NCBI GenBank assembly: GCA_002254365.1
Contig: NIUT01000134.1
Location: forward strand, 3,252 to 67,251
Direction: 5' to 3'
Length of the DNA: 64,000 nt
Source of the DNA: Nitrospira sp. UW-LDO-01
Lineage (GTDB): Bacteria > Nitrospirota > Nitrospiria > Nitrospirales > Nitrospiraceae
Part shown: positions 2,771-34,934 of the stretch, one piece after another
Layout: every line of letters begins with the position of its first letter
How positions within the stretch are numbered: position 1 is the stretch's first letter
The notes under the pieces: model-generated
The model's database searches: none
Told to the model about the DNA's origin: nothing
The model's input: only the letters and a program-made list of their open reading frames with translations
Position numbers and translations under genes: made by a program

Positions 2771-2778
2771 GCACCGGA

Positions 2779-2863: not shown

Positions 2864-2873
2864 AAAGAATACG

Positions 2874-3752: not shown

Positions 3753-3759
3753 GTAGGTT

Positions 3760-5286
<1,527 letters not shown>

Positions 5287-5288
5287 AT

Positions 5289-5385
5289 AGGCGGCTGAAC
5301 CGAGCGCCCTCCGTGCTCGCGCAACGCGCGGTCTCGGAAGGCCCTCGTTGCATGCGCGCGGTTGAGGACACATCGGTTCCCGCCT
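5289..5385. repeat. REP/MITE-like palindromic insertion between atpD and atpC
   Basis: Ends AGGCGGCTGAACCGA ... TCGGTTCCCGCCT are imperfect inverted repeats; internal GCGCG-rich stems. Confidence 0.5.
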
Positions 5386-5410
5386 TAGGGTGGGATGAAG
5401 GAAGAGCGAG

Positions 5411-5833
5411 ATGCCAGGGAAGTTTTTATTAGAGGTTGTGACACCGGAAAAACTCCTCTTGAGTCAGCAGGTCGATGAAGTCATTGCACCTGGCTCAGAG
5501 GGTGAATTCGGGGTGTTGGTAGGGCATTGTCATTTTCTGTCGACCCTCCGGATCGGCGAACTCCGTTATCGGATCGATCAAGAGACCCATTCGATGGCGG
5601 TACTCTGGGGGTTTGCAGAGGTCACTCCGACTAAAGTCACGATCATGGCTGAGGTTGCTGAAAAAGCGGAAGATATCGATGTGGAGCGCGCAACCGCCAA
5701 GGTGGCTGAAGCTGAACGGCGACTTCAGGCCGGTGGCTTGCCGTCTGAAGTCAAAGAGGCCCAGGTGAGTCTGGAAAAAGCTCGCCTCCGTAAAAAAATT
5801 GCCGAGCGCGCTAAGAAACCAAGCCACGCCTAA
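5411..5833 (+). CDS. atpC: ATP synthase F1 subunit epsilon
   Basis: LEVVTPEK, GSEGEFGVLVGH, GFAEV, C-terminal helical hairpin. Confidence 0.96.
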   Translation: MPGKFLLEVVTPEKLLLSQQVDEVIAPGSEGEFGVLVGHCHFLSTLRIGELRYRIDQETHSMAVLWGFAEVTPTKVTIMAEVAEKAEDIDVERATAKVAEAERRLQAGGLPSEVKEAQVSLEKARLRKKIAERAKKPSHA

Positions 5834-5968
5834 TCTCACGGTTTGTCCCCGCCCCTTCTTCTACACCCTTTTCCTGCAGTCGGACCATGGTTCAGTGCGA
5901 CTTTTCGTCCTATCCCTGAACGCTGCTCCGGTCAATTGCCAGTCGCATTCGATGAGCTAGCAGGGGAT

Positions 5969-6973
5969 ATGATCACGGAATTTCTCATCACAGCCGGAGA
6001 GCAGCCTAAGCGGTTGGATATCTTTCTCGTCGGTCGAGAGCGAGATGCCTCCCGATCTTCGTTGCAGCGGTTGATTGAATTGGGCCGTATCCGAGTCAAT
6101 GACCAGGTAGTGAAACCCAGCCACAAAATTAAACCAGGCGACCGGATCACGATGGATGTTCCGAAGCCGGAACCGCTCTCCATGAAAGGAGAAGCGATCC
6201 CGCTCGAGGTCTTGTTTGAGGATGATGCTCTGCTGGTCTTAGATAAGCCACCCGGTATCGTGGTCCATCCGGCGCCGGGTAATTGGAGCGGGACGCTGGT
6301 GAACGCACTGTTGCATCACTTCCAAACTTCCGGCGGGACTATTTCAACAATCGGTGGGAAGGAACGTCCTGGGCTGGTTCATCGTTTGGATAAGGAAACC
6401 TCCGGTGTCATGGTGATTACAAAGACCGATACCGCGCATCGGGCTCTTGCTGCCCAGTTCAAACTCCACACGATCACCAGAGTCTATGAAGCACTGGTCT
6501 GGGGAGTACCCAAAAAGGGAAGAGGGCTGATTGATCTCGCCATTGGGCGAGATAGTAAAGACCGAAAGAAGTTCTCCCCAAGAACGACGAGTCCCAAGGA
6601 GTCTGTGACCGAATATGTGGTGACCCGACGGTATGGTAAAGTAGCCGCACATGTCTTGCTCTATCCGCAAACCGGACGGACGCACCAGTTGCGGGTGCAT
6701 CTCACTTCATTGGGCCATCCCATTCTGGGCGATCGCACCTATGGCGGCAACAAAGTGATGGCTCTTGGGGACATCGAGATCCCACGTGTGATGCTTCATG
6801 CTAGGACGTTAGGTTTTACGCATCCAACGTCAGCCGCGAGAGAGGAATTCATGAGGCCGTTCCCTGCGGATATGGAGCGCGTCATTCATGCACTCGAACA
6901 CCTGAATGCCACGGGGGATCGGGTGCCCATTAGTACAACGACGATAGGAACAGCCGAGGAGGAGCGATGTTGA
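5969..6973 (+). CDS. rluD: RluA-family 23S rRNA pseudouridine synthase (RluD-like, S4 domain)
   Basis: RLDIFL S4 domain, VHRLDKETSG catalytic motif, TGRTHQLRVH; start moved to ATG 5969. Confidence 0.88.
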   Translation: MITEFLITAGEQPKRLDIFLVGRERDASRSSLQRLIELGRIRVNDQVVKPSHKIKPGDRITMDVPKPEPLSMKGEAIPLEVLFEDDALLVLDKPPGIVVHPAPGNWSGTLVNALLHHFQTSGGTISTIGGKERPGLVHRLDKETSGVMVITKTDTAHRALAAQFKLHTITRVYEALVWGVPKKGRGLIDLAIGRDSKDRKKFSPRTTSPKESVTEYVVTRRYGKVAAHVLLYPQTGRTHQLRVHLTSLGHPILGDRTYGGNKVMALGDIEIPRVMLHARTLGFTHPTSAAREEFMRPFPADMERVIHALEHLNATGDRVPISTTTIGTAEEERC

Positions 6974-7389
6974 CCGCGGAGGTGTTAGATGCGTTAGGCG
7001 GCCTCACGGCTCACGTCAAAAGTTATGCGGCGACCCTTCCCTCCATCGTACATTTGAAGGCAGTGCCTTCCGGGATGAAACCTTCTGTGGAGGCGATTGT
7101 CAGCTATGAGGCGATTGTCTCACGAACACAACGTCAAAGTGCCGGCACTCCATACAAAACGCTCAATGAATCATTGGTCTGCTCATTGGAAGCCTTCGAA
7201 CAGGGGAATTTGATCGGGGCCGTCCAGGCACTCCTTACCGTAATCGACCAGCTGGAACGCATGCATCGAGATCAAGAGATTAAGGCCGGACGCATGGACG
7301 AGAAGCGACTCACGGAGTACCGCGTGGTCCTACGAAAAGTGCTTCCCGGGAACCAGCCGGAGCTGGCAGAGACAGGGCGAGGTTTGTAA
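6967..7389 (+). CDS. Hypothetical protein
   Basis: 140-aa ORF overlapping the rluD end, GGAG RBS. Confidence 0.7.
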   Translation: MLTAEVLDALGGLTAHVKSYAATLPSIVHLKAVPSGMKPSVEAIVSYEAIVSRTQRQSAGTPYKTLNESLVCSLEAFEQGNLIGAVQALLTVIDQLERMHRDQEIKAGRMDEKRLTEYRVVLRKVLPGNQPELAETGRGL

Positions 7390-14688: not shown

Positions 14689-15612
14689 TCAATTCTGACG
14701 GGCTGAGGATGGTGAATCATTTGGGATATGAAACTCGAACGAGTTACCGCCTTGCTGTTTGGCACGGTACATCGCGGCATCCGCATGTGTTAATAATTCA
14801 TCGATATCATGGTCGTCGGTCGGATAGATGGTGATTCCGATACTGACACTGATCACGGCCTGGTGTTCTCCAAGTATGAACGGTTCCGAGAGAGAGTGTG
14901 TGATTCGTTGGGCTACCGATGAGATATCCTCCTCACACATCAACCCTTCGAGGATGATCGTAAACTCATCTCCTCCCATGCGTGCAACGGTGTCCACCTC
15001 TCGCACACATTCATAGAGTCGCTCGGCCACTACTTTCAACAGTTGATCACCGACGCGGTGGCCGAGTGTGTCGTTCACCGGCTTGAATCGATCGAGGTCA
15101 AGCAACATCAACCCAAGCGGCTGCTGGAGACGCTTGCTTCGTGCCATGGCTTGTACGAGCCGATCGCGGAACAGGCTGCGGTTTACGAGTCCGGTGAGCT
15201 GATCGTACTGGGCGAGGTAGGTGAGTCGTTCCTCCGCACGTTTCCGCTCAATCCCATAATGGATTGAACGGGCCAATAATTCCGACGGACCTTCTCCCTT
15301 CACGAGATAATCCTGAGCTCCATTTTGGACGGCTTGCAAAGCCAGCGCCTGATCACTGAGCCCGCTCAGTACAATGATCGCAATGGTCGGATTGGCTGCG
15401 TGAATCTGACGTACCGTTGAGAGCCCATACCCATCCGGGAGCGAAAGGTCCAAGAGTACCGCATCAAAACGAGCACGAGCGAGATAGCGGAAGGCCTCAC
15501 TCAGGCGCGTCACATGAGTGATATCGAATTCTTCCAGCTGCCACTCTGCAAGGATATCCTGCGTCAGACGAGCATCGACAGCATTGTCTTCAACTAAGAG
15601 AATCTTGATCAT
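14689..15612 (-). CDS. Response regulator-diguanylate cyclase (REC + GGDEF)
   Basis: LLVEDN...LLDLSLPDG receiver; intact GGDEF with RxxD I-site (REVD). Confidence 0.93.
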   Translation of the reverse strand: MIKILLVEDNAVDARLTQDILAEWQLEEFDITHVTRLSEAFRYLARARFDAVLLDLSLPDGYGLSTVRQIHAANPTIAIIVLSGLSDQALALQAVQNGAQDYLVKGEGPSELLARSIHYGIERKRAEERLTYLAQYDQLTGLVNRSLFRDRLVQAMARSKRLQQPLGLMLLDLDRFKPVNDTLGHRVGDQLLKVVAERLYECVREVDTVARMGGDEFTIILEGLMCEEDISSVAQRITHSLSEPFILGEHQAVISVSIGITIYPTDDHDIDELLTHADAAMYRAKQQGGNSFEFHIPNDSPSSARQN

Positions 15613-16256
15613 ATCCGGTCCGGTTAGCCCCGTCGCTCATCGAAGACACCCTCTTCTGTGGATATGTATCAAGTATAGCGTAAGGCTCTGATACAACAAG
15701 CAAATGGTTGAAGTGGTGACGGAGTACATCGTATTGCCTGCCTCAGACCGACAGGACTCTTCAAGTAGGAGATCCGCTTCGGGCGGGAGTCAGGAACGAG
15801 CGGGAGCTTCTAGGAATGAGCACTCGCCATGATGATCAGGAGGTCGGGCTGTCGCAATAGGAAGCTGGTCAATCAACAGCTGGTTAGAGTGTGGGAACTA
15901 ACGGGCCACAGATGACCGTGGAAATGGAAGAGAGATTGAGGTTAGGAGGTGCTTAGAGGAGGCAGAGGTGTGAATTAACTTGGGTAGCGGTGCTAGCCCG
16001 CATTATTCATGACAGTTCGTAACGAAACCGACAAAACGCCAGGCGAGACGGGCACGCGGAGCCCTGAGAGGCCGAGGCATACTTGAAACAGTATGTCGAG
16101 GTCACGAAGGGCGAGCCTGCTCGCTTGGCCGCTGACAGACCGCGGCCGGGCTTGTCGCAGCGGCGTATTGGCGGGTGCAGTAGAAGTGTTCATGAATCAT
16201 GCGGGCTAGGCACTGCGCATTGGAGAGAGATAGAGGCGCAGGGGGCAGTCGCGCGA

Positions 16257-16598
16257 TTATGATCCCTGAGAACTGCTAGGCATTGTTGCGGGGTATGCTC
16301 CGATCGGGGGTTGTTCAGGACCTAATGCCGCTTCACAGGCATACCCTGGCTGAAACGGCCAGAGGAGTGAACGACCGACGACATTTCCTCGTATGTGAAT
16401 ATATCGCAACGTTGTACCCATGCGAGCCGCTTCGTCCTTCACCTTTTCAGTACATTCCTGCGCGGAGTAGCCGCGGCGGGAAATCAGCAATGGAGATCCA
16501 GAACCGCTGAGCACAGAATATTCATTGATGCATCCGCTCAGGCCAAGAAGGAGACAGAGAAGACCAGCGAAGCGAATGACCCCTGTTCCTGGGGCCAT
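16257..16598 (-). CDS. Hypothetical lipoprotein
   Basis: MAPGTGVIRFAGLLCLLLGLSGC lipobox; start moved to ATG 16598. Confidence 0.65.
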   Translation of the reverse strand: MAPGTGVIRFAGLLCLLLGLSGCINEYSVLSGSGSPLLISRRGYSAQECTEKVKDEAARMGTTLRYIHIRGNVVGRSLLWPFQPGYACEAALGPEQPPIGAYPATMPSSSQGS

Positions 16599-16916
16599 CG
16601 TGCGATGAGATCCGCTGTCCCGTCGTGTCCTACAAGAGGTCAAATCAACAGTCATATTTAACCATACCACGAAAACAGGGTCCCAAGCGACCAGATAGGC
16701 CTGTCAATCTTTGATGCAGTGGAATTGCCCTGCTTGTGAATTATGAAGCTGAGAGCAGGCGTGATTTGGGGCATGATCAGTTTCTTCCCGAAATGTTACG
16801 AATACGTTTATGGGCAGCGACTGCTTCTCATAACGCTGAAAAGGATAGAGAAACTCAATCTGCATGCTTGTGGCAGGATGGGAAAAACGGGAGCAGCGAA
16901 ACAAAGGTGCAACGGG

Positions 16917-17310: not shown

Positions 17311-17326
17311 TGGCATGAAAGTTGAG
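17311..17326 (+). promoter_or_regulatory. Possible variant sigma-54 promoter
   Basis: TGGCATGAAAGTTGAG: -24 box good, -12 reads TTGA rather than TTGC; 52 nt before ATG 17379. Confidence 0.35.
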
Positions 17327-17378
17327 CTCAGTGGACGGGTTATATCCCTGTTCTGTGTCTGGATTGAGGTGCGGCGAG

Positions 17379-18596
17379 ATGGATGCGACAAATGGGTGGA
17401 ATGTGGCGAATGGCCTATGGGAATTCCTCACTCAGGATTTAGCAATCGTGGGCGGGTTGTCCAGTCCAATGCTGAGCTGGATCGGCATGGCGGGGATTCT
17501 TGCCATGTGCGTGTGGCATGGAGCCGTACTTCTTCATGGAGCCTTGCGGATTCGACAGGCGTTGTGTCGAGTTCAATCACAGGTGTCGAGCCTTCTCTTC
17601 ACACGCCGACAATGGTCAACGGACTGGATTGTCACATCGACGTTGGGTAGAACGAGGCCGCGTCCAGATGAGTCGCAGGAGTCACGACGCGATCTCGATG
17701 ATCTCCACGTGTTGGATCAAGCCATGCGCGTTGAACGAGCGTTTGCCGTAGATTGGCTGTCTTACCGAAAGACCTTCGCGATTGAACAGTCAGCCTGGTT
17801 TGCGGAGCCGACGGTATCTGCAAAGAAATCGGCTGCGGAATTCTTTTCGTTTGAAGCCTCCATGGCGGAATACCTCAACGTCGGGTTCTATCGGCAACTT
17901 CCGTCTTTTCTGACTGGTATGGGACTGATGTTCACGTTTCTGGCGATTCTGATCGGTCTGAGCAAGCTTCACGCAAACGGCTCGCAGGTTGAAGGAATCG
18001 CAGGTCTCATTAACGGGCTCTCCGGAAAGTTTGTCACATCCATTGCCGGTTTGGCCTGTTCGAATGCGTTTACCCTTCTGGAAAACTCTGTTTGGTATCG
18101 TCTGAGCAACCGACATCGGCGATGTCTCTCGTTGCTCGATGAAGTCTTTCCTCAAAGGATTGTCGATCAACATGCCCAGTCTTCAGCGGGGCAGACTAGG
18201 CCTGTGTCAACTATCGTCGGTCCCACTCGAAACGACGGTGACAAACAATTGGCTGAGGTCGTGCACCATCGACTCGGTACGGCAGTGGCTGCCTTAACAA
18301 AAGCGTCAGAGTCGCTCACAGCGATGAGTGCGACCCACCATGGTTCAACAGTGAACGATCTTCCAGGAGAGATTGGTCATGAGGTTCAAAAGGCATTGAA
18401 GCGGGTGGTTCAGCCGTTGGCGGATGCGATTCAGGACCTCCATCGAACCATGAAAGGACAGGCGCTTCCGGTCCAGCTCTCAAAATCAGAAATGGAAACC
18501 ATATTTCAGGAGCTAAAGACCCATGGAGGGGCTATACAAACTACTCTTTCCGTCAAGACAGGGAGTCCTGGGAACAGCACGCCTCATCACGAGTAA
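17379..18596 (+). CDS. MotA/TolQ/ExbB-family proton-channel protein, ZorA-like, with helical C-terminal tail
   Basis: N-terminal TM, large loop, then NVGFYRQLPSFLTGMGLMFTFLAILIGL...GLINGLSGKFVTSIAGL, followed by a ~170-aa helical tail; GAGGT RBS. Confidence 0.8.
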   Translation: MDATNGWNVANGLWEFLTQDLAIVGGLSSPMLSWIGMAGILAMCVWHGAVLLHGALRIRQALCRVQSQVSSLLFTRRQWSTDWIVTSTLGRTRPRPDESQESRRDLDDLHVLDQAMRVERAFAVDWLSYRKTFAIEQSAWFAEPTVSAKKSAAEFFSFEASMAEYLNVGFYRQLPSFLTGMGLMFTFLAILIGLSKLHANGSQVEGIAGLINGLSGKFVTSIAGLACSNAFTLLENSVWYRLSNRHRRCLSLLDEVFPQRIVDQHAQSSAGQTRPVSTIVGPTRNDGDKQLAEVVHHRLGTAVAALTKASESLTAMSATHHGSTVNDLPGEIGHEVQKALKRVVQPLADAIQDLHRTMKGQALPVQLSKSEMETIFQELKTHGGAIQTTLSVKTGSPGNSTPHHE

Positions 18597-18611
18597 CGCG
18601 AGAGTGGTCAG

Positions 18612-19253
18612 ATGAGACATCGCACATTGCCAATTGCACAGGACTCTTCCGTCTCATCTTCTGCTGTATCAAGTGGGGTGACCGATCTCATGACCTCGCT
18701 CGCCGTGATCTTCATCCTTCTGTTTGCCGCATATGTGAACCGGGTTCAGGAAAGCCCGGAAAGTCATGCGCAGGATCCTCCATCTCCAAGGGAAGAAGGA
18801 CAACAACTCAATCGCCCGCTCCTCAAGCATGAAGACCGCAAGCCAGAGGTTTTGGCGGTCAGTATACCGGATGTTGCGCTCAACTTTGACTTTGGGGAGA
18901 GCACGTTGCTCCCGCCTGCGGAGGCTTTTTTGTCGGAGGCGATGCCACACTATGCAGCCATGGTGTGTGCACAAGGAGGCAAAGAGGTGGAAGCCTTTGT
19001 GATAGAGGGATACACCGATGATCTTGGAGACGACATTCGCAATTTGCGATTGAGCCAGGAGCGCTCGTTCGCCGTGTTGGCCAAGAGCGTGGAGGTGGTC
19101 CGTGAGAAGCTTCCTTGGGCCTATGAATGCTTTTTACAAAAGGCGACAGCGAATGGTCGTGGGAGACAGAATCTTCTACGGGACGCTGCAGGAGATGCGG
19201 ATCGTGAGCGGAGCCGTCGGGTGATGTTTAAAATACATCTGCGCCCTCAGTAG
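18612..19253 (+). CDS. MotB/OmpA-family protein, ZorB-like
   Basis: TDLMTSLAVIFILLF TM with conserved Asp; peptidoglycan-binding domain LNFDFGES, IEGYTD, NLRLSQERS, NGRG, SRRV. Confidence 0.82.
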   Translation: MRHRTLPIAQDSSVSSSAVSSGVTDLMTSLAVIFILLFAAYVNRVQESPESHAQDPPSPREEGQQLNRPLLKHEDRKPEVLAVSIPDVALNFDFGESTLLPPAEAFLSEAMPHYAAMVCAQGGKEVEAFVIEGYTDDLGDDIRNLRLSQERSFAVLAKSVEVVREKLPWAYECFLQKATANGRGRQNLLRDAAGDADRERSRRVMFKIHLRPQ

Positions 19254-19366: not shown

Positions 19367-20170
19367 TTATGTCAGTTCTTGCATGAGGTGGTCCAATTCA
19401 AGAAACTGCTCAAGCGTCAGAGTTTCAGCACGAAGCGAGGGCGAGAGATGGAGTCTCGTCAAGGCAGTTTCAACAGGTCTCGAATCATAGCCTTCGTTCT
19501 TGAGCGAGTTAACGAGTGTCTTGCGTCGGTGAGCGAAGGCAGCTCGCACGAGCGCAGTGAACCGTTGTTCTTCTTCAAGCCGTCGTGCTCTCGGCTCGCA
19601 GGCCCGCAGCAGAACCACAGAAGAGTCCACCTCTGGTCGAGGACGGAAACATTGTGGTGAGACTTTGAAAGCTTTTGAAATATGCGCGGAGTATTGAGCC
19701 ATGACAGATAGGACACCGTAATCGGACGTCCCAGGTTTTGCGATAAGACGGTCCGCGACTTCGTTTTGCAGCATCAAAACCATTCGGGCAAAACGTTTGC
19801 CCTGAGCAAGGAGTCGAAAGAGGAGCGGAGTAGAAATGTAATAGGGGAGATTGGCGACAACGATGGTTCCGATCGGTAAATATTCGATGGGACAAGTCAG
19901 GGCATCGCCCAGCACGAGAGTGACATTAGGAAGGCGTTCGGTTCGTTCGGAGAGGAATGTGTAAAGGCGAGGGTCAATTTCAACTGCCGTCACGTGACCG
20001 ACAGCTCGGCACAGGGCCTCCGTCAGGATGCCTCGGCCTGGGCCGATCTCCAAAACAGTATCAGCGGGTGAGAGCTCCGCGAGTGCGACGATCTTACGAA
20101 CGATGTTCGGATCGATCAGAAAATTTTGGCCCAGCCGTTTGATTGCCGCAGGGGGAGGTGATGAGTCCAC
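19367..20170 (-). CDS. rsmA: 16S rRNA m6(2)A1518/1519 dimethyltransferase
   Basis: KRLGQNFL, LEIGPGRG, VANLPYYIS, FRPRPEVDS; GTG start 20170. Confidence 0.96.
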   Translation of the reverse strand: MDSSPPPAAIKRLGQNFLIDPNIVRKIVALAELSPADTVLEIGPGRGILTEALCRAVGHVTAVEIDPRLYTFLSERTERLPNVTLVLGDALTCPIEYLPIGTIVVANLPYYISTPLLFRLLAQGKRFARMVLMLQNEVADRLIAKPGTSDYGVLSVMAQYSAHISKAFKVSPQCFRPRPEVDSSVVLLRACEPRARRLEEEQRFTALVRAAFAHRRKTLVNSLKNEGYDSRPVETALTRLHLSPSLRAETLTLEQFLELDHLMQELT

Positions 20171-20172
20171 CC

Positions 20173-20490
20173 TCAACTCCCGGGTGAAGAGGAACGAGAG
20201 AATGTGTCGGCGAGGCGGACCAGCGGTGTACGGTAACACTCCACGAGATCGGTAAATTCTTCGAGCAAATCGTTGGTGAAGGAGGGACCTGGCTGGGTCT
20301 GAGCGAACCTTTCCCCATCCTCACGGCTGACAGCGGTGGTAATGAGTGTGACGGTGCGTGATTTCCATTTGGCTATGCGCTCCGTTCCCGCAACAGTATT
20401 CAGGTCCTGACAGGTCTGTTGGGCAAGCGCATCCAGTTCCGCAATCTGTTGCCGAATGGCGGCCAGCTGCTTGGAGCTATCAAGCGGCAT
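20173..20490 (-). CDS. Hypothetical protein
   Basis: 105-aa ORF tightly coupled between pdxA and rsmA. Confidence 0.75.
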   Translation of the reverse strand: MPLDSSKQLAAIRQQIAELDALAQQTCQDLNTVAGTERIAKWKSRTVTLITTAVSREDGERFAQTQPGPSFTNDLLEEFTDLVECYRTPLVRLADTFSRSSSPGS

Positions 20491-26554: not shown

Positions 26555-27325
26555 GTGATGAAACCAAGGGTTATGAAAGGAAATGGATCAGGAATCGGGA
26601 TGCGAGCGGTGTGGCTTACGGCAATTCTGATGTCTCTGAACGTTTCCAGTGCCTATTCAGAAATGTACATCGGTGGACAAGTTGGAACGACATTCTTCGG
26701 CGACAACAACAAGCTCACACGGGTTGAGATTACCGATCTCAGTGCTCCCCCTGGATCTTTTCTCACTCCACGGGGTTCAATGTCAGGGCGCGATCTGGCC
26801 AGTTCTCCTGTGTGGGGTGGGAAGATAGGTTACTACTTTCCCAAGGTGAGCTGGTTTGGGGTAGAACTGGAAGCCTATTACAGCAACCCCCACATTGAGC
26901 AGGGGCCAACAAGAGTCAGTATTCTTCCGGGGACGGTTGTCGTTGGCGGTACTGTAACGAGTGGTGATGATGTAAGAATATTCCCGGGCGACAATTTTCG
27001 AGTGATCACCATTGCGCCATTCAATCTCATGTTTCGTTACAACAAGGCACGATTTCAGCCGTATATCGGCGTGGGGCCTGCGATACTCTTGTCTCGAATT
27101 GAGACGACGGAGGTCGGGTTTCAGGGGACACAGAGTTCAACGAAAGTTGGTCTCAACGTAAAACTGGGTGGCGAATACTTCTTTACTGAGCATATCTCAG
27201 GATATGGAGAGGTACGGTACAATTACACGCGATTCGACTTTGACGCAACTGAAGCCGGAGGCTTTGGCTTTACGGCAACCTATAATCCGATTATCTTTTC
27301 TTTTGGGGTGGGCTATCACTTCTAA
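26555..27325 (+). CDS. Outer-membrane beta-barrel protein
   Basis: Signal peptide, YIGGQVG, QPYIGVG, GVGYHF C-terminus; AGGAGG RBS. Confidence 0.85.
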   Translation: MMKPRVMKGNGSGIGMRAVWLTAILMSLNVSSAYSEMYIGGQVGTTFFGDNNKLTRVEITDLSAPPGSFLTPRGSMSGRDLASSPVWGGKIGYYFPKVSWFGVELEAYYSNPHIEQGPTRVSILPGTVVVGGTVTSGDDVRIFPGDNFRVITIAPFNLMFRYNKARFQPYIGVGPAILLSRIETTEVGFQGTQSSTKVGLNVKLGGEYFFTEHISGYGEVRYNYTRFDFDATEAGGFGFTATYNPIIFSFGVGYHF

Positions 27326-27393
27326 CTACTCAGCGGGCTAGCATCTCGGGGGCATTTCCCTGTATGTAGGTGGCATACCGGGAATGCCCAACG

Positions 27394-27753
27394 ATGCAAG
27401 CCTGCCCTTTCTGTGACCGGTCACAACCAGAGATAAATCGGTTCTGTACTCAGTGCGGTCGGCGGCTTGATGGGACCGCAGAGTCTAGGTCCGGTGCTAG
27501 GCCTCGCGCAACTCCTCCCGATCAGCTCAACCTCTCCATCTTATACGGCATGGTCGTAGTTCTGATGCTGGCGCTGCTGTTCCCGCCGTGGGAAACGCCG
27601 CCAAGTCAGACTCCCGAATTTCTTGGTATGCATTTCATCCTCTCCCCTCCAGCCCCTGATGCCGTCATGAGTCGCATGCTCCTGACGATTGAACTGGTGA
27701 CGATTGCGATTGCCGGGATGTACGGGGCGTTTCTGTTCCGGAAAAAGCCATGA
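27394..27753 (+). CDS. Zinc-ribbon + 2-TM membrane protein
   Basis: CPFC...FCTQCG followed by two hydrophobic segments. Confidence 0.7.
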   Translation: MQACPFCDRSQPEINRFCTQCGRRLDGTAESRSGARPRATPPDQLNLSILYGMVVVLMLALLFPPWETPPSQTPEFLGMHFILSPPAPDAVMSRMLLTIELVTIAIAGMYGAFLFRKKP

Positions 27754-27866
27754 AGTAGATGTGGCGAAGTCCATCAGTCGAAACGTCACGTCCTCAAGCC
27801 GAAAGTCTGTGAAGGGCATCGTAAAGACACTTGAAAGAAATGAAAACCTCCTAGGTTCGAGCTGAA

Positions 27867-28667
27867 TCAATCCAAAGCCAACGTCAGGCATTTAGCTGAC
27901 CCACCCGATTTCATGAACTCATCGAGCTGAACTGCATGGGTGTCGTATCCCCGTTCCTGCAGCAAGCTTTCTGTCCTGGGACATCCGGCGGGAAGAACCA
28001 CATGCTTTCCTACACAGACGGCGTTGCAGGCGAACTTCAGGGCTTCGTGTTCAGGGACCACCAGACGCTGCTCGGTGGGGACTCGGGTAGCCAGTACCTC
28101 TCGACCATCCAGATCGAAGGCGGCGGGGAAATACAGCAGCTCGCCGCCGCTTAATGGGCAGAAACAGGTATCGAGATGGTAGAAGCGATTGTCGATGAGT
28201 TCGAGCGGAATGATTTCTCGATGGAAGTGCTCGCTGAGGATCGGGTACACACCGATATCCGATCGCTGTCGATACCCACCGAACCAGGTATCGGACAATC
28301 CCAGGAGATCGCCCGCGCCCTCAAAGTGAAGGCCGGTCTGCACCGTCATGACGTCATACCCCTGCCGGCGAAACCAACGCTCGACATGCGCCTCCTCTCG
28401 CTGGCGCTCAGGATGTCGGAAGTGACTCACGACGGCCGTGCGTCCGACAACCAGTCCGGCATTCGCCGTAAACACAAGATCCGGTAGTCCGGGAATGGGG
28501 GGCATTCGTTCGAGCATCACACCCAATTCCTGTTCAAGAATCTCCATCAAGGTATGCCACTGTGAGACGGCTCGCTCGTGGTCGACTCGGTTGCTGAGGC
28601 GCATCCAGGGATTGATCTCATACTCGATACCGAAAAAGTCCGGTGGGCAGACCAGGAGGCGACTCAT
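27867..28667 (-). CDS. Amidinotransferase/pentein-family enzyme, similar to the arginine dihydrolase domain of ArgZ/AgrE
   Basis: CPPDFFGIEYEINPWM, PDLVFTANAG, FEGAGD, YHLDTCFCPL, SGGSAKCL catalytic Cys. Confidence 0.88.
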   Translation of the reverse strand: MSRLLVCPPDFFGIEYEINPWMRLSNRVDHERAVSQWHTLMEILEQELGVMLERMPPIPGLPDLVFTANAGLVVGRTAVVSHFRHPERQREEAHVERWFRRQGYDVMTVQTGLHFEGAGDLLGLSDTWFGGYRQRSDIGVYPILSEHFHREIIPLELIDNRFYHLDTCFCPLSGGELLYFPAAFDLDGREVLATRVPTEQRLVVPEHEALKFACNAVCVGKHVVLPAGCPRTESLLQERGYDTHAVQLDEFMKSGGSAKCLTLALD

Positions 28668-29908
28668 GCTTGCCTTCCCAGAACCCGAGCCAGTTCTGTT
28701 AGAAACGATGCTGCGTCCATGACAAGACCGACGGCTTGAAAGCTGCCGCGATCGGCTAATTTGGTCGGGACTGAGGGATTCACGTCGACACAGACGGTCG
28801 GGATGGTCGCCGGGAGCAGATTGCCGGTGGCAATGGCATGCAGCGTGGACGCAACCAACAGCGCCAATCCCACACCGGGAATCATAGCTCGCATGGCGTT
28901 TTGCGCTTCGACAGAGTCTGTGATCACCCCAGGCAAGGGGCCATCGTCACGGATTGTCCCAGCGATGACGACCGATACCTCTTGTCGGACACAGGCTGCC
29001 ATTATCCCTTGCGCGATCACGCCGGAAGTCACGGCTGCCTGAATACTGCCGATGGTACGAATGCGATTGATGGTCCGTAAATGGTGTTCGTGGCCGTGGG
29101 GAACTGCGCGCCCGACCCTGAGTCCGTATCCGAGCGAAGTGCCATACAGGTCGGCTTCCATGTCATGCGCAGCCAGCGCATTGCCGCAGAACAGCACCTG
29201 GATAAAGCCCTGTTCGATCAACCACGTGAGTGCCTCCCGACCACCGGCATGAATGATGGCCGGTCCGCCGGCAAGCAACACTTTGGAGTCAGGTTGCCCT
29301 TCCTGGTATTGAGCACGCAATCGTCTCATCCGAGCCGCGACATCAGCGATGACGTGCCCATGGGGGCGCTCCGCCGAGACATGCGACTCCATGAATCCAA
29401 ACACATCCCGTTCTTGCGGACGCTGCAAGGGAATGACCCGCACACCAGCACGGCCGACGACGACTCGATCGCCACGGCGAACCTCGCCCATCGGAACCGC
29501 GCGCGCTGCCATGCCTTGTTCATCCACGAGGATCGCAAGGTCCATCTCGATGCGATCGACCTCCAGCCACCGGCCATTGAGCCGAATCTGAGTGGGTAAG
29601 TGGGTCGTGGCGTAGAAATCGTCGGGTAACAGGCCATCGGCTGGCGCTTGATCAGTCCGACAGTCAGCCTCACCTTCAACTAAGGCTCCATGCGGCTGAA
29701 TCGCTTTCAGAATGTCATCCAGAAGACTACGCGAGGTCGCTCGGATCACGATGCGGGCAAGAGAGGGTTCTTCACGCGTCTTTCCGATGCAGACGTCTTC
29801 AAGGTCGAAAGTCCCACCCATCATCACGATGAGGTCCAGTACCTTCGCCAGCACGAGGGAGTCGATGATGTGTCCTTGCAGAACGACAGTCTCGTGATAA
29901 GTGCTCAT
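28664..29908 (-). CDS. TIGR00300 (LOR/SDH) family protein, similar to the ornithine cyclodeaminase part of AgrE
   Basis: QGHIIDS, PDDFYATT, FGFMESHVSAER, GPAIIH, GNALAAHD, GTIRDDGPLP. Confidence 0.88.
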   Translation of the reverse strand: MSTYHETVVLQGHIIDSLVLAKVLDLIVMMGGTFDLEDVCIGKTREEPSLARIVIRATSRSLLDDILKAIQPHGALVEGEADCRTDQAPADGLLPDDFYATTHLPTQIRLNGRWLEVDRIEMDLAILVDEQGMAARAVPMGEVRRGDRVVVGRAGVRVIPLQRPQERDVFGFMESHVSAERPHGHVIADVAARMRRLRAQYQEGQPDSKVLLAGGPAIIHAGGREALTWLIEQGFIQVLFCGNALAAHDMEADLYGTSLGYGLRVGRAVPHGHEHHLRTINRIRTIGSIQAAVTSGVIAQGIMAACVRQEVSVVIAGTIRDDGPLPGVITDSVEAQNAMRAMIPGVGLALLVASTLHAIATGNLLPATIPTVCVDVNPSVPTKLADRGSFQAVGLVMDAASFLTELARVLGRQA

Positions 29909-29979
29909 AGCCTTGTGTGTTACAGCTGGCCGTATTGTATCACTCGGTGGAGGAGGCGAAAGAAAATGAGAATTGACCG

Positions 29980-31044
29980 CTATGGGGTGGACTGAGATGG
30001 TTTCATCAATTCTCGTAACACGCTTGTCGCATAAGCACCTGGAGGCAGGCTAAATGAGAGAGTGAGGATATTCTGGTTCAACGACCAGACTAGTTCGGTC
30101 AGCGGGACGCGAAGTGCACGACGTTCTCCTCGAAATCCGCAGGCCTTGGCGGCGGTAATGAGGACGTCTTTGGTGGCGCCTGCTTCGGTGATGACCGTCT
30201 CTTCGATCACACCGGGTTCACCCCCGGCCCAAGATACGCGTGACCCAAAGAGAATCCCGGTCGGGCTGATCTCAAAGCGATCGGCGCGTGGTTGCTCCTT
30301 CTCCGCATCGTCGACCTGGAAGCAGGCGCCGTTGTCCTGTTTCATTGCCCAGTCGCCGATGAACAGACGATCAATCTGATCGATCCGGCGGGCAAGGATC
30401 CGATTGAACAGAAAGGACTGATAGGTATTGAGATACCAGATACGCTGGTTACGATTCATCTTCTCGCGTCGACGGGCATCGTGGAGTAAGGCTGCGCCGG
30501 TTTGGTAGTTGGTCCCATCCTTTCCTTGCCGTTGAGGACCAAAGTAGTTCGGGACTCCGCGTCTGGTGAGCTGCTCAAGAATCACTGGAGCGGTGTCCTT
30601 TGCGTGGCCGGCAACTTCGCGGATGGTCAGATGGAAACGATTGCCCGCATGGTGACCGGTGCGAAGCCGATTGCGATGGCGTCCGAGGACGGTCACATTC
30701 AGGATGGTGTCATCGACGGAGAGGCTAGCGACCTGCTCAGGAGACACACCTTGCAAAGAGATCATTTGCGTCGTGACGGCTCGCGCGTCTTTCAGGCCTG
30801 CGACCCCGATGGCTTGCGCCTTGATCCCCAATGTCGAGGAGAGCCGTCGGACGAGATCGGGCGTGGAAAGACCACGCTTCGTGATCGTGATGTAGAGGTG
30901 TTCTCCTTCGCCGCAGGGCAGGTAGAGGGGCCGCTCTTCAACCTGAAAGTCCTCCGGCACAGAACGCATTCGTCCACCGATTCCGGGAAGATCACTCGTC
31001 AGAAAGGGTTCGTTCAGTGGTTCCATCGGTTCTCCGTACGGCAT
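29980..31044 (-). CDS. truD: tRNA pseudouridine(13) synthase
   Basis: PEDFQVEE, AGLKDARAVTTQ, GNRF, VPNYFGPQR, FSLPPGAYAT. Confidence 0.95.
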   Translation of the reverse strand: MPYGEPMEPLNEPFLTSDLPGIGGRMRSVPEDFQVEERPLYLPCGEGEHLYITITKRGLSTPDLVRRLSSTLGIKAQAIGVAGLKDARAVTTQMISLQGVSPEQVASLSVDDTILNVTVLGRHRNRLRTGHHAGNRFHLTIREVAGHAKDTAPVILEQLTRRGVPNYFGPQRQGKDGTNYQTGAALLHDARRREKMNRNQRIWYLNTYQSFLFNRILARRIDQIDRLFIGDWAMKQDNGACFQVDDAEKEQPRADRFEISPTGILFGSRVSWAGGEPGVIEETVITEAGATKDVLITAAKACGFRGERRALRVPLTELVWSLNQNILTLSFSLPPGAYATSVLRELMKPSQSTP

Positions 31045-31080
31045 CGACTCAGTGACCGCATGCTATACTTTTTCTGATCC

Positions 31081-31941
31081 ATGGAGGGAAAAGGATTGAG
31101 GGATAGGATGAGTATCGGACGTACGTCGTCATGGCCCGATCTTTTGCGAGCTTCCATCGGCCATGCCATGGGCCAGCCCCTCTATCAGCTGTTCAGCCTT
31201 GCTCCAGACTGGGAATTTGGTCTCTCCGACTATGAGGTGACACGACATACCCATATGCATGGGTTGCTTGCCGGGCATCGTGCCGTCCATCTCACCGACC
31301 TGCACATCGATCGATATTGTCTGCGTCATGATCGTATTGTCCAGAACACCGGCGATCTCAGACCGGACTGGATTGTCATCACCGGCGACCTGCTCAATGT
31401 ACCAGAAGGGCTGCCGCACCTGTTCCGGTTTCTTGGCCGTCTTCGCGACATTGCGCCAGTGTATATGACTCTGGGCAATCACGATCATTACAGCGGTGTG
31501 TCGGTGACAGAGTATGCCGAATTGGCTGACCGGCACAAGATTACATTGTTGGTGAACCAGAGTGCGGTTGTCTCAGTAGCAGGAGGAGAGTTGGTGATTG
31601 TCGGTGTCGATGATCCTTCCCTCCACCGGGCAGATCTGCGATGTCTGCCAACTCGCGCGGACCATCGCTTTACGCTGCTGCTGGCCCATGCACCGAATAT
31701 CCTCGATCAAGTTGAGCCGCACCATGCCATCGATTTGATCTTGTGCGGGCACAGTCACGGTGGGCAGTGGCGGGTACCGGGAGTTCCAATCTTCTGGCTC
31801 CCGCCGGGATGTGGCGGCCGGGTTGCAGGCTGGCATCGGTCTGGTGTCCACAGGCTGTACGTCAATCGAGGACTCGGGTGGTCCTTTCTTCCCTTTCGAT
31901 GGAACTGCCGGCCAGAAATCGCCCTCATCGAGTGGGTGTAG
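31081..31941 (+). CDS. Metallophosphoesterase (YkuE-like)
   Basis: TDLH, TGD, LGNHDH, LAH, GHSHGGQ. Confidence 0.9.
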   Translation: MEGKGLRDRMSIGRTSSWPDLLRASIGHAMGQPLYQLFSLAPDWEFGLSDYEVTRHTHMHGLLAGHRAVHLTDLHIDRYCLRHDRIVQNTGDLRPDWIVITGDLLNVPEGLPHLFRFLGRLRDIAPVYMTLGNHDHYSGVSVTEYAELADRHKITLLVNQSAVVSVAGGELVIVGVDDPSLHRADLRCLPTRADHRFTLLLAHAPNILDQVEPHHAIDLILCGHSHGGQWRVPGVPIFWLPPGCGGRVAGWHRSGVHRLYVNRGLGWSFLPFRWNCRPEIALIEWV

Positions 31942-32003
31942 GCATAGACAGATCTCCGAGCAACATTGCCGACCCAGTGTCGTGAATGTCTATTGGCGTG
32001 ATG

Positions 32004-32711
32004 TTAGGACCGCATCTGTTCCAGCGCTTCCCTCGCCCGGCTTCTGACAGTTTGATCCCAATCGTGCTCCATCGCTGTTTTTAAACGCTCACGCGCTTCC
32101 GTTGCACGTAATCGCCCAAGCCCCAACGCAGCGCAGGCACGCACGTAGGCATGGTCGTCGTCCAAGGCCGTCATCAGGAGATGGATCACTGACCGATCTT
32201 GCAACGCACCAAGATGGCTGGCTGCCATGCCACGGATGCGATGCTGTTTGTCGCCCAATGCTCGTTCTAAGGTCGTGGCGAAGAGTTCCCTGAGCGCAGG
32301 AACCACCGAATCCAGTCCATCGATTTGATAGTCATTATTCTCCAGTAGGGCAAAGGCCAGATCCAGTCGCTTCTCCGGTGCCGTGGCTCGTTCAAACAGT
32401 CCCAACAGTCGACTTCGTTCTTTCGATCTGGCGCGTCGGCGATGAAACGACTTCATCGGAATGAACAATAGGAGGGCTATTACAAAGCCGATTGCCGCCA
32501 TCGGCACGGCCTGATCAACCAGGTAGTCTTGTGTCTCGAGCGAAAGCCGTTTCCAGACCCAGACACCTGTGATGAGGCAGATGATGAGAATGACGAGGAG
32601 CGCGGGATTCACCTGCCCCTGCTCGCGAGGCTGCATGTTGATCATGGGGGAAAGATCATACGGGTGTACGGAAGGGGTCGTCAACGAAGCGGCGCTGAGC
32701 TGACGCCGCAT
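32004..32711 (-). CDS. Membrane-anchored HEAT-repeat protein
   Basis: Two TMs followed by HEAT/PBS repeats (VRACAALGLG, VRSRAREAL); start uncertain. Confidence 0.8.
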   Translation of the reverse strand: MRRQLSAASLTTPSVHPYDLSPMINMQPREQGQVNPALLVILIICLITGVWVWKRLSLETQDYLVDQAVPMAAIGFVIALLLFIPMKSFHRRRARSKERSRLLGLFERATAPEKRLDLAFALLENNDYQIDGLDSVVPALRELFATTLERALGDKQHRIRGMAASHLGALQDRSVIHLLMTALDDDHAYVRACAALGLGRLRATEARERLKTAMEHDWDQTVRSRAREALEQMRS

Positions 32712-32751
32712 GCCTTCGCGTCAGCTCAGGTTGGGTCCATCAGCGCTGTAA

Positions 32752-32781
32752 TTGACAGACTGTTGCGGCAATAGCCATACT
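32752..32781 (+). promoter_or_regulatory. Possible sigma-70 promoter
   Basis: TTGACA-N18-CATACT, 35 nt before ATG 32817. Confidence 0.45.
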
Positions 32782-32816
32782 CGGGCCATTCATCGTCGGT
32801 GCGGTTTATCAGGATT

Positions 32817-34901: not shown

Positions 34902-34934
34902 ACTCGAGTCGTTCCTACGAACTATTTGTCAGGA

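What the first reader, a model, noticed from the sequence alone, without database searches (positions are those of the whole stretch)
17311..19253. Stand-alone ZorA/ZorB-like proton motor with no Zorya effectors
The A subunit has the Zorya-type layout (TM1, large loop, TGxG..FT TM2, TM3 with FVTS, helical cytoplasmic tail) rather than the MotA/TolQ layout. The B subunit has the DLM TM Asp and an OmpA-type peptidoglycan-binding domain. Known Zorya systems carry ZorC/D, ZorE or ZorF/G, but here the next gene is convergent rsmA and no flagellar or TonB genes are nearby. The tail (~170 aa) is much shorter than in E. coli type I ZorA. This could be a domesticated envelope-sensing motor, a system with effectors in trans, or a minimal defence that works by membrane depolarisation.
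Basis: partly seen in the sequence, partly recalled or inferred. Interest (0 to 1): 0.75.

Follow-up and report, generated by a model that had tools for sequence, protein, structure and literature searches.

The report
Effector-less short-tailed ZorAB motor in Nitrospira
This Nitrospira genome carries an expressed, well-conserved pair of genes for the membrane proton motor of the Zorya anti-phage system, but with a stubby tail and no DNA-attacking partner genes; the pair is found across the order Nitrospirales and so looks like a defence-type motor kept for some other, still unknown, envelope job.

Summary
Genes at 17379-18596 (A, 405 aa) and 18612-19253 (B, 213 aa) match ZorA/ZorB by profile, PDB sequence and fold. 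They do not match MotAB, ExbBD or TolQR. The motor residues are intact: B Asp25, A Thr186 and Ser221, and the OmpA-type peptidoglycan motif.

Three Zorya hallmarks are missing.
- The tail is 146 aa, against a median of 417 aa in long-tailed relatives.
- The two Ca2+-site glutamates are replaced (W-L-S-Y-R-K).
- No zorC-G gene lies in the 64-kb window or beside about 80 related loci.

The closest long-tailed relative sits in a canonical zorABCD operon, so this is a type-I-related offshoot.

The pair always occurs as A+B, and every named carrier is Nitrospirota (80 of 80 best genome loci). Within the Nitrospira clade that carries this form of the pair it sits in a fixed housekeeping neighbourhood, from 100% down to 54% identity. 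It is under purifying selection (core 0.15, tail 0.23, B domain 0.05) and is transcribed in sludge metatranscriptomes.

Best reading (about 0.55): a vertically inherited, exapted ZorAB-type proton motor that senses or transduces at the envelope, with an unknown output. A minimal or trans-effector defence remains possible (about 0.27). It is a new variant of a known kind; interest 0.6.

The parts
17366..17371 (+). Ribosome-binding site GAGGTG, 7 nt upstream of the ATG of gene A
   Evidence: Read directly from the sequence. The start is supported by 405-aa homologues and by the gene call in L001.
17379..18596 (+). Gene A: ZorA-like pentamer-forming motor subunit, 405 aa (Pfam PF28082, ZorA-like_t1)
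   Evidence: PADLOC ZorA1 1e-16. PDB sequence hits to ZorA entries 8vvn and 8qyd. Foldseek ZorA, probability 1.0. PF28082 is assigned to the gene product called at the same position in the near-identical genome locus L001.
17469..17546 (+). A TM1 (residues about 31-56), the peripheral lipid-facing helix
   Evidence: Hydropathy. AF2 helix 31-79 with pLDDT about 90.
17676..17822 (+). A membrane-proximal cytoplasmic domain (residues about 100-148): invariant RRDLDDL..LD segment, two helices and a beta-hairpin (133-148)
   Evidence: AF2 secondary structure. Invariant columns. A beta-hairpin is the Zorya-type hallmark (PMC12505986; PMC11946911).
17754..17771 (+). W126-L-S128-Y-R-K131: the position of the EcZorA Ca2+ ligands E86 and E89, here Ser and Lys
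   Evidence: Two-step mapping: EcZorA to P0277, then P0277 to A in the multiple alignment. K131 is invariant in A1.
17880..18098 (+). A TM2, periplasmic loop and TM3 (residues about 168-240), with Thr186 (17934-17936) and Ser221 (18039-18041) equivalent to EcZorA T147 and S184, and Pro175 equivalent to P136
   Evidence: Residue-by-residue PDB alignment. All are invariant in 33 homologues. Positions checked.
18156..18248 (+). A variable, probably disordered linker (residues 260-290), after the invariant LLDExFPQ end of the TM3 helix
   Evidence: pLDDT 28-40. Low conservation. dN/dS 1.08.
18249..18530 (+). A C-terminal helical domain, the 'short tail' (residues 291-384): three predicted helices separated by conserved Pro-containing breaks
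   Evidence: AF2 helices 287-319, 328-358 and 369-384, at low confidence. Conserved L299, A305, P329, A339, L367, S368, E373. dN/dS 0.23. It aligns to the proximal part of long ZorA tails only.
18612..19253 (+). Gene B: ZorB-like stator/anchor subunit, 213 aa
   Evidence: PADLOC ZorB1 PDLC00609 1.6e-33, full length. A ZorB in a canonical zorABCD operon scores about the same (2.6e-31). PDB ZorB entries 8vvi and 8qyd.
18675..18737 (+). B transmembrane helix (residues 22-42), with the proton-carrying Asp25 (codon 18684-18686) equivalent to EcZorB D26
   Evidence: Alignment to 8qyd_F. Invariant in 29 B homologues of both subclades. Hydropathy.
18738..18866 (+). B periplasmic Pro-rich variable linker (residues 43-85), in place of the rigid alpha-1 helix of EcZorB
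   Evidence: Sequence and alignment. dN/dS 1.24. That it is a flexible tether is inferred; the AF2 model of B was too poor to use.
18867..19250 (+). B OmpA-like peptidoglycan-binding domain (residues 86-213): N144, L147 and R151 equal EcZorB N152, L155 and R159; invariant Cys119 and Cys173
   Evidence: Pfam OmpA 4e-8. Residue mapping. Invariance. dN/dS 0.05.

Best explanation
Identity (well supported). The two genes encode a ZorAB-type, type-I-related inner-membrane complex. By homology it is an A5B2 proton-driven rotary motor. The B dimer is anchored to peptidoglycan through an OmpA-like domain. Protons pass through B Asp25 and the A Thr186/Ser221 filter.

How it differs from canonical Zorya. 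The complex lacks the distal roughly 270-aa stretch of the ZorA tail. It lacks the Ca2+ site that couples the motor to the tail. It has no ZorC/D, ZorE or ZorF/G effector gene nearby.

Distribution. The pair is a self-contained two-gene unit. Every named carrier found so far is Nitrospirota, mostly of the order Nitrospirales.

Function (inferred, about 0.55). It is an exapted, or possibly pre-defence, ZorAB motor kept for a lineage-specific housekeeping role at the cell envelope. The most likely mechanism has three steps:
- A change in the envelope or peptidoglycan releases rotation of A around the anchored B.
- Proton flow drives that rotation.
- The short C-terminal helical domain of A passes the signal to a cytoplasmic partner that is encoded elsewhere and not yet identified.

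What is shown: family identity, intact motor residues, missing parts, distribution, synteny, selection and transcription. What is inferred: stoichiometry, rotation, the trigger and the output.
For: Identity:
- PADLOC gives ZorA1 1e-16 and ZorB1 1.6e-33.
- PDB sequence hits are only ZorA and ZorB.
- Foldseek gives ZorA at probability 1.0, E 2.6e-8, against ExbB/TolQ at about 1e-2.
- The beta-hairpin in the cytoplasmic domain is present.
- T186, S221, P175 and B D25, N144, L147, R151 are conserved.

Type-I affinity:
- The best-scoring long relative, P0277, lies in a zorABCD operon with ZorC1 and ZorD1 (4e-215).

Missing parts:
- The tail is 146 aa, against a median of 417 aa.
- The E86/E89 equivalents are S128 and K131.
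- No Zor effector occurs in the window or next to related loci.

Self-contained pair:
- B follows A directly in all 77 loci that have room for it.
- No third gene is conserved. The best neighbour cluster occurs in 26 loci and is a generic REC/PAS kinase family.

Inheritance:
- All named hits are Nitrospirota.
- 80 of the 80 best of 235 genome loci are Nitrospirota.
- The same 20-kb housekeeping synteny holds from 100% down to 54% identity.
- Identity falls in step with the flanking genes.
- GC content shows no island, and no mobile-element gene is adjacent.

Selection:
- dN/dS is 0.15 for the A core, 0.23 for the tail and 0.05 for the peptidoglycan-binding domain. Only the linkers are near 1.

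Expression:
- Metatranscriptome contigs cover both genes at depths close to those of rsmA and pdxA.
- Two contigs span the A/B junction.

By analogy:
- Canonical Zorya needs the full tail, the Ca2+ site and the effectors (PMC11946911).
Against: - There is no functional data of any kind.
- Only 64 kb of this genome was available, so zorC-G or another effector elsewhere cannot be excluded.
- 'Core' is not proven. 235 species-level genomes carry a relative, but the number of Nitrospirales genomes that lack it is unknown.
- Two deeply diverged forms (34-41% identity in A) sit in different genomic contexts. The second form occupies at least three contexts. That could reflect lateral replacement, as seen for defence genes.
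- A evolves faster than the flanking rsmA and REC-GGDEF genes.
- Metatranscriptome contigs may contain DNA carry-over, and they say nothing about induction.
- Some defence systems are conserved in lineage-specific core islands.
- The tail model is of low confidence. A5B2 assembly was not modelled.
Confidence: 0.55

Rival explanations
1. It is a minimal Zorya-like anti-phage system. The short-tailed ZorAB senses phage perturbation of the envelope. It then either activates an effector encoded elsewhere in the genome (a trans ZorC/D-like protein or another defence nuclease), or it aborts infection by itself, for example through uncontrolled proton influx.
For: - The closest characterised relatives are all defence motors.
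- The nearest long relative is in a zorABCD operon.
- All motor and peptidoglycan-binding residues are intact.
- A evolves faster than its housekeeping neighbours.
- Two diverged forms sit in different contexts.
- The rest of the genome could not be searched.
Against: - In E. coli Zorya every tail truncation abolished defence, including a tip deletion that still assembles. E86A/E89A and deletion of zorC or zorD did the same (PMC11946911). Here the distal tail, both glutamates and the effector genes are all absent.
- No Zorya-mediated depolarisation was detected for types I and II (PMC11890865).
- The neighbourhood is stable and housekeeping in character, not a defence island. The distribution is one pair per lineage across an order.
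- The genes are transcribed in bulk sludge communities at levels like their neighbours.
Confidence: 0.27
2. It is an input or output module of a nearby signalling pathway. Motor rotation, or the short tail, would talk to the divergently encoded REC-GGDEF diguanylate cyclase (14689-15612, minus strand), coupling envelope state to c-di-GMP. This is a specific version of the best explanation.
For: - The REC-GGDEF gene is retained upstream in every locus that carries the form of the pair found in this window, at 84-100% identity.
- REC-, PAS-kinase-, HDOD- or PilZ-domain genes lie near several loci of the second form.
Against: - The whole 20-kb block is syntenic, so adjacency is not specific to this pair.
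- In the second form only 26 of about 85 loci have a REC-type neighbour within 5 kb. That is not clearly above expectation for genomes rich in such genes (the expectation is my own estimate).
- The genes are on opposite strands and are separated by two small ORFs.
Confidence: 0.1
3. It is a decaying remnant of a type I Zorya operon that lost zorCD and part of zorA, and it has no function.
For: The tail is truncated and the effectors are absent, relative to the zorABCD relatives.
Against: - Reading frames are intact in about 80 loci.
- dN/dS is 0.05-0.23 in all structured parts, including the tail.
- Catalytic and binding residues are invariant over 34-100% identity.
- The genes are transcribed.
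Confidence: 0.03
4. It is an ordinary MotAB flagellar stator, or a TolQR/ExbBD energiser, that has been mis-read as Zorya-like.
For: It belongs to the same 5:2 motor superfamily. UniRef names one homologue 'MotA/TolQ/ExbB proton channel domain'.
Against: - There is no Pfam MotA_ExbB hit.
- No MotA, ExbB or TolQ sequence hit appears in the PDB.
- Fold matches to ExbB and TolQ are about a million-fold weaker than those to ZorA.
- B has an OmpA-like domain, not an ExbD or TolR fold.
- No flagellar, TonB or TolA/B/Pal genes are nearby.
Confidence: 0.02

Closest known systems
Type I Zorya ZorA5B2 motor (E. coli NCTC9026, PDB 8QYD; Shewanella ANA-3, PDB 8VVN)
   Same: - Three-TM A subunit with a membrane-proximal cytoplasmic domain that contains a beta-hairpin.
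- TM2 Thr and TM3 Ser filter, TM2 Pro, and B-subunit TM Asp.
- OmpA-like peptidoglycan-binding domain with the N..L...R motif.
- A-then-B gene order.
- These are the best sequence, profile and fold matches.
   Different: - The tail is 146 aa rather than about 500 aa, and only the proximal part aligns.
- The Ca2+ ligands E86 and E89 are replaced by Ser and Lys.
- A 30-aa variable linker follows TM3.
- The alpha-1 helix of B is replaced by a Pro-rich linker.
- B has one invariant Cys pair rather than two disulfides (PMC11946911).
- There is no zorC or zorD.
- Scores fall far below the NCBIfam cut-offs.
- The context is a conserved housekeeping block, not a defence island.
Uncultured-organism zorABCD operons holding the nearest long-tailed relatives (L089, with P0277, 609 aa; L090)
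   Same: - They give the highest profile scores to the Nitrospirales family among long ZorA proteins.
- They share the GLINGL[AS]GKF loop and the LD..F.R motif at the end of TM3.
- Their ZorB scores on the same PADLOC model, at the same level as B.
   Different: - They keep the W-x-E-F-x-E Ca2+ motif, a tail of about 350 aa or more, and the downstream ZorC1 and ZorD1 genes.
- The sister relationship in the tree is weakly supported (13% bootstrap).
Pfam PF28082 'ZorA-like_t1'
   Same: Precomputed Pfam hits place every A homologue in this family, including the gene product at the same position in the near-identical genome locus L001.
   Different: This is a database family only. My local Pfam copy does not hold it. 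I found no paper that uses the term or describes these proteins.
MotAB/PomAB flagellar stator
   Same: Same 5:2 ion-driven motor superfamily. The B subunit has a TM Asp and an OmpA-like peptidoglycan anchor. A flexible periplasmic linker in B, inferred here, would resemble MotB.
   Different: - MotA has four TM helices and a large torque-generating loop, with no beta-hairpin and no C-terminal tail.
- No plug helix is evident in B.
- There are no sequence hits and no flagellar genes nearby.
ExbBD / TolQR energisers
   Same: The A subunit shares the three-TM topology. They are weak fold matches (E about 1e-2). They are housekeeping, vertically inherited envelope motors, which is the lifestyle proposed here.
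   Different: ExbD and TolR lack an OmpA-like domain. They have partner proteins (TonB, TolA) encoded alongside. There is no Pfam MotA_ExbB match.

Membership tests
Zorya anti-phage system (type I) | ZorA-type A subunit: three TM helices plus a membrane-proximal cytoplasmic domain with a beta-hairpin | tested here: met
   AF2 model. Foldseek ZorA, probability 1.0, TM-score 0.65-0.73 normalised to the target. PADLOC ZorA1 1e-16.
Zorya anti-phage system (type I) | ZorB with a TM Asp (EcZorB D26) and a peptidoglycan-binding domain (Y151, N152, L155, R159) | tested here: met
   D25, N144, L147 and R151 are conserved and invariant; Y151 corresponds to R143. PADLOC ZorB1 1.6e-33, full length.
Zorya anti-phage system (type I) | Ion-path filter residues (EcZorA T147, S184) | tested here: met
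   T186 and S221 are invariant in 33 homologues.
Zorya anti-phage system (type I) | Long cytoplasmic ZorA tail, present in all subtypes and required for defence | tested here: not met
   146 aa after the FPQ motif, against a median of 417 aa in long relatives. Only the proximal tail aligns. The requirement is from PMC11946911.
Zorya anti-phage system (type I) | Ca2+ site linking the cytoplasmic domain to the tail (EcZorA E86, E89) | tested here: not met
   W-x-E-F-x-E in EcZorA and in most long relatives. The short clade has W-L-S-Y-R-K.
Zorya anti-phage system (types I-III) | Co-operonic effector genes (zorCD, zorE or zorFG) | tested here: not met
   No PADLOC hit in the 61 other window ORFs. 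Neighbours in more than 80 related loci are housekeeping genes. Positive control: zorC and zorD were found beside P0277. The rest of the genome was not searchable.
Zorya anti-phage system (types I-III) | NCBIfam curated cut-offs for ZorA/ZorB subfamily and equivalog models | tested here: not met
   Best ZorA score 41.5 bits against a cut-off of 250. ZorB1 24.4 bits against 400.
Zorya anti-phage system (types I-III) | A5B2 stoichiometry and proton-driven rotation | not testable with these tools
   Only single-chain prediction was available. Inferred from homology.
Zorya anti-phage system (types I-III) | Protection against phage infection | not testable with these tools
   Needs an experiment.
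Pfam PF28082 ZorA-like_t1 | Match to the family model | tested here: met
   Precomputed assignment for the gene product at the same position in the near-identical locus L001 and for all listed homologues. The model is absent from the local Pfam copy.
MotAB flagellar stator | Four-TM MotA with a MotA_ExbB domain match and a flagellar gene context | tested here: not met
   No Pfam or PDB sequence match. PomA fold match at E 0.2-0.4. No flagellar genes in the window.
ExbBD / TolQR | MotA_ExbB domain in A, ExbD/TolR fold in B, and an adjacent TonB or TolA | tested here: not met
   No Pfam match for A. B is OmpA-like. Fold matches at E about 1e-2. No TonB or Tol genes nearby.

The most novel reading that the evidence does not exclude
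ZorAB-type motors are not only phage sensors. In Nitrospirales a short-tailed form, free of the Ca2+ site and of effectors, would have become (or ancestrally was) a housekeeping, proton-powered transducer of envelope state. That would be the first non-defence member of the Zorya motor lineage. It would also be a natural 'minimal ZorAB', showing what the motor senses and how a short tail signals.
Probability: 0.45. Interest if true: 0.75.

Novelty: new variant of a known kind. Interest (0 to 1): 0.6.

Why it matters
What ZorAB actually senses is still an open question; the current proposal is envelope perturbation. So is how tail rotation is turned into a signal.

This pair is a naturally pared-down ZorAB. 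The motor and the peptidoglycan anchor are intact. The distal tail, the Ca2+ coupling site and the effectors are gone. Yet selection has kept it across an order of globally important nitrite oxidisers and complete ammonia oxidisers.

If it has a non-defence role, it shows that defence motors and housekeeping motors exchange in both directions, and it adds a new class to the 5:2 motor family.

If it does defend, it defines the minimal Zorya and points to unlinked effectors.

Either way it gives a compact complex (405 + 213 aa) for structural and heterologous work.

Tried and rejected
- AF2 model of B: unusable (mean pLDDT 44). So the lack of a rigid alpha-1 helix in B rests on sequence only.
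- No multimer prediction was possible.
- Metagenome scan with P0273 alone found nothing. The alignment-based repeat found L089 and L090.
- Rfam found no family anywhere in the window.
- The promoter and terminator scan showed nothing above shuffled controls around the pair.
- The tail alone has no significant Pfam or PDB match. pAdhesive_17 at 0.036 is noise.
- The small upstream genes (a 137-aa lipoprotein and a 65-aa ORF) were tested as possible third components. They occur only in the loci that share this window's gene order, not beside the second form of the pair, so I rejected them.
- An enrichment of REC-domain neighbours was considered but is not convincing.
- Paralogy of the two forms: among five MAGs from one study, each carried only one form. 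One MAG has two copies of the second form (L031, L038). This is unresolved.
- A look-up of the 1135-aa window protein for annotation failed.
- The sister-group position of P0273/P0277 is not supported by bootstrap (13%). I therefore rely on profile scores rather than on the tree.
- My first bootstrap run was invalid because of a distance overflow. I repeated it.
Full report
**1. What is there**

The region holds two co-oriented ORFs. Gene A is best read from the ATG at 17379. A GAGGTG ribosome-binding site lies 7 nt upstream. From there to 18596 the product is 405 aa. All 33 aligned homologues start at the same place, and so does the gene call in a near-identical genome.

Gene B runs from 18612 to 19253 (213 aa), 15 nt after A. 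The next gene is convergent rsmA (19367-20239, minus strand), followed by a 105-aa ORF, pdxA, a Na/Ca exchanger and larC. Upstream, on the other strand, lie a 65-aa ORF, a small lipoprotein ORF, a REC-GGDEF gene and a TPR gene. GC content is flat across the window, with no island.

**2. Family identity**

- A has no match in the local Pfam copy. B matches OmpA (4e-8).
- PADLOC gives ZorA1 models for A (best 1e-16, over the TM core). For B it gives a full-length ZorB1 match at 1.6e-33.
- NCBIfam hits are all to Zorya models but fall far below their cut-offs.
- In the PDB, the only sequence matches for A are ZorA chains: Shewanella 8vvn at 1.8e-8, or 1.2e-11 with a profile, and E. coli 8qyd. For B the best matches are ZorB chains. 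No MotA, ExbB or TolQ chain appears.
- An AF2 model of A has mean pLDDT 64, with the TM core near 90. It shows TM1, two cytoplasmic helices with a beta-hairpin (133-148), TM2, and a TM3 helix running to residue 256. A disordered stretch follows, then three C-terminal helices.
- Foldseek puts ZorA first (probability 1.0, E 2.6e-8). ExbB and TolQ come about six orders of magnitude weaker, and PomA weaker still.

The beta-hairpin is the feature that published work uses to set Zorya-type A subunits apart (PMC12505986; PMC11946911).

**3. Motor residues**

The printed alignments allow residue-by-residue mapping.

| E. coli protein and residue | Here | Status |
|---|---|---|
| ZorA T147 | A T186 | invariant |
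| ZorA S184 | A S221 | invariant |
| ZorA P136 | A P175 | invariant |
| ZorA D217 | A D254 | invariant |
| ZorA Y220 | A F257 | invariant |
| ZorB D26 | B D25 | invariant |
| ZorB N152 | B N144 | invariant |
| ZorB L155 | B L147 | invariant |
| ZorB R159 | B R151 | invariant |
| ZorB Y151 | B R143 | replaced |

Invariance is across homologues of 34-100% identity. The parts needed for proton-driven rotation and for peptidoglycan anchoring are therefore intact. That the complex is A5B2 and rotates is inferred from homology and was not tested.

**4. What is missing**

(a) *The tail.* After the conserved LLDExFPQ motif, A has 146 residues. In an alignment of 89 full-length relatives, the short group has 119-205 residues there. 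The long proteins have a median of 417. Profile matches show that A covers only about the first 360 residues of 600-aa relatives, so the distal tail is absent.

(b) *The Ca2+ site.* EcZorA E86 and E89 lie in a W-x-E-F-x-E motif. Most long relatives keep it. The whole short clade has W-[LSNK]-[SQ]-[YF]-R-K instead; here it reads W126-L-S-Y-R-K131. A Lys in place of the metal, possibly pairing with the invariant D254, is my speculation.

(c) *The effectors.* PADLOC finds no ZorC-G among the 61 other ORFs of the window. As a positive control, the same search readily found ZorC1 and ZorD1 (4e-215) next to the closest long relative.

In E. coli, tail truncations abolish defence, including one that still assembles. 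So do E86A/E89A and loss of zorC or zorD (PMC11946911).

**5. Relatives and distribution**

Word-indexed searches found 291 clusters for A and 352 for B. Every named one is Nitrospira, at 54-100% identity and about 400 aa. All listed A homologues carry the precomputed Pfam family PF28082, 'ZorA-like_t1'.

An exhaustive profile search of 1.84 billion representatives gave about 25 clusters of 376-469 aa, with E from 1e-144 to about 1e-50. After a sharp drop come proteins of 550-830 aa. PADLOC calls the four of these long proteins that I scanned ZorA1.

In a neighbour-joining tree of the core region, the short proteins group together in about 80% of bootstraps. The subclade that contains this window's protein is supported at 99%. 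Which long protein is sister is not resolved (13%).

A second, deeply diverged form of the pair is typified by P0253, which is 34% identical to A. It is found in MAGs labelled Nitrospira, Nitrospiraceae, Nitrospirales and Nitrospirota. A scan of one genome per GTDB species found 235 relatives, and the 80 best are all Nitrospirota.

P0277, one of the two best-scoring long relatives, lies in a canonical zorA-zorB-zorC-zorD operon. So does another long relative. The Nitrospirales pair is thus an offshoot of the type I lineage.

**6. A self-contained pair in housekeeping surroundings**

In all 77 loci with enough downstream sequence, a B gene follows A directly. Clustering of all ORFs within 5 kb found no family shared by more than 26 loci. 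That family is a generic REC/PAS sensor kinase.

The other recurrent neighbours are all ordinary genes with no Zorya effector hit:
- IDO.
- An alcohol dehydrogenase.
- A PdxB-like dehydrogenase.
- PTPS.
- VIT1.
- PqiAB.

Within the subclade that contains this window's protein, the same block is kept from 100% down to 54% identity in A. The block runs as follows:
- znuABC.
- anmK and a DUF2726 gene.
- The TPR gene.
- The REC-GGDEF gene.
- The small ORFs.
- A and B.
- rsmA, the 105-aa ORF, pdxA, the Na/Ca exchanger and larC.
- purE and gpsA.

Identity falls in step with the flanking genes, although A diverges faster than rsmA or REC-GGDEF. The two small upstream ORFs do not accompany the second form, so they are not system components.

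**7. Selection and expression**

Selection was measured against a genome 85% identical in A.

| Region | dN/dS |
|---|---|
| A cytoplasmic domain and TM2-TM3 core | 0.15 |
| A C-terminal helical domain | 0.23 |
| A residues 260-290 (linker) | 1.08 |
| B peptidoglycan-binding domain | 0.05 |
| B periplasmic linker | 1.24 |

The tail is therefore functional, and only the two linkers drift.

Several wastewater and sludge metatranscriptomes hold the sequence. Their contigs cover both genes at depths similar to, or somewhat below, those of rsmA and pdxA. Two contigs span the A/B junction, which is consistent with one transcript. Two caveats apply: these are assembled contigs, and DNA carry-over is possible.

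**8. Interpretation**

The identity claim is strong. The functional claim is inference.

Several observations fit a vertically inherited, exapted motor with a lineage-specific envelope role better than a canonical or decaying defence system:
- Restriction to one order.
- One pair per genome in the cases I could check.
- Stable housekeeping synteny.
- Purifying selection on the tail.
- Transcription in ordinary sludge communities, with no known phage trigger.
- Systematic loss of exactly the parts that canonical Zorya needs to talk to its effectors.

I put this at about 0.55.

Defence cannot be excluded (about 0.27). The rest of the genome was not available, the two forms sit in different contexts, and A evolves fairly fast. 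The depolarisation version is weakened by the lack of depolarisation in canonical Zorya (PMC11890865). Decay, and an ordinary Mot/Tol/Exb identity, are rejected by the data.

**9. Novelty**

I found no paper that describes stand-alone or Nitrospira ZorAB-like pairs. Published surveys of Zorya kept only canonical gene orders (PMC11946911), which would have filtered such pairs out. Pfam has a family for the A protein, so the sequence family has been noticed at database level.

I rate this a new variant of a known kind, with interest 0.6.

Noticed in passing
window 15869-16669 (minus-strand ORF 16257-16670): Metatranscriptome depth here is several-fold higher than in the neighbours (up to 100 in X26 and 48 in X32). 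The region covers a small lipoprotein-like ORF of 113-137 aa, with an LLGLSGC lipobox. The ORF is conserved upstream of the pair in all loci that share this window's gene order, but it was not called in the near-identical genome. No Rfam family matches there.
   Followed up: partly
window 26555-46352: This stretch holds ORFs with adenylate/guanylate cyclase, AAA_16 and SAM domains. It also holds an animal-type haem peroxidase domain, an ABC1 kinase and a Metallophos domain. These account for isolated PADLOC hits to PycC, mad3, mad8 and AriA. They look like generic-domain hits, not a complete defence system. I did not establish which domains share one ORF.
   Followed up: partly
window, ORFs outside 26555-46352: Two ORFs hit the PADLOC model mad2 (5.7e-27). 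They were not located and are possibly the two SAM-dependent methyltransferases, of which rsmA is one.
   Followed up: no
L003 4963-5498: A HicA/HicB toxin-antitoxin pair and two small ORFs are inserted between the DUF2726 gene and the TPR gene, in an otherwise syntenic block of another Nitrospira genome.
   Followed up: no
L031 and L038 (MAG SMAG_U236): One MAG carries two copies of the second form of the A gene, on separate short contigs. They are 77% and 75% identical to P0253. This is either true paralogy or a mixed bin.
   Followed up: no
P0302 (617 aa) in the alignment: One long-tailed ZorA1-like protein also has W-L-A-Y-R-R in place of the Ca2+-site glutamates. Loss of the Ca2+ site is therefore not confined to the short-tailed clade.
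   Followed up: no
P0294, P0330, P0374, P0377, P0284 (388-449 aa): A few other short-tailed ZorA-like proteins (tails of 177-231 aa) fall outside the Nitrospirales clade in the tree. They may be independent tail shortenings or truncated metagenomic gene calls.
   Followed up: no
window 18738-18866 compared with the second-form B genes (alignment A4): In the Nitrospira subclade that contains this window, the stretch between the TM helix of B and its peptidoglycan-binding domain is Pro-rich and evolves neutrally. In the second form it looks like a conserved helix (EDVQxxLRDHxxRLGL), as in E. coli ZorB. This suggests that the anchor was loosened secondarily.
   Followed up: partly
window 700-7389: F1Fo ATP synthase genes (the delta subunit at 700-1239; alpha, gamma and beta family hits among the window ORFs) lie at the start of the window. 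This underlines the housekeeping character of the region.
   Followed up: no
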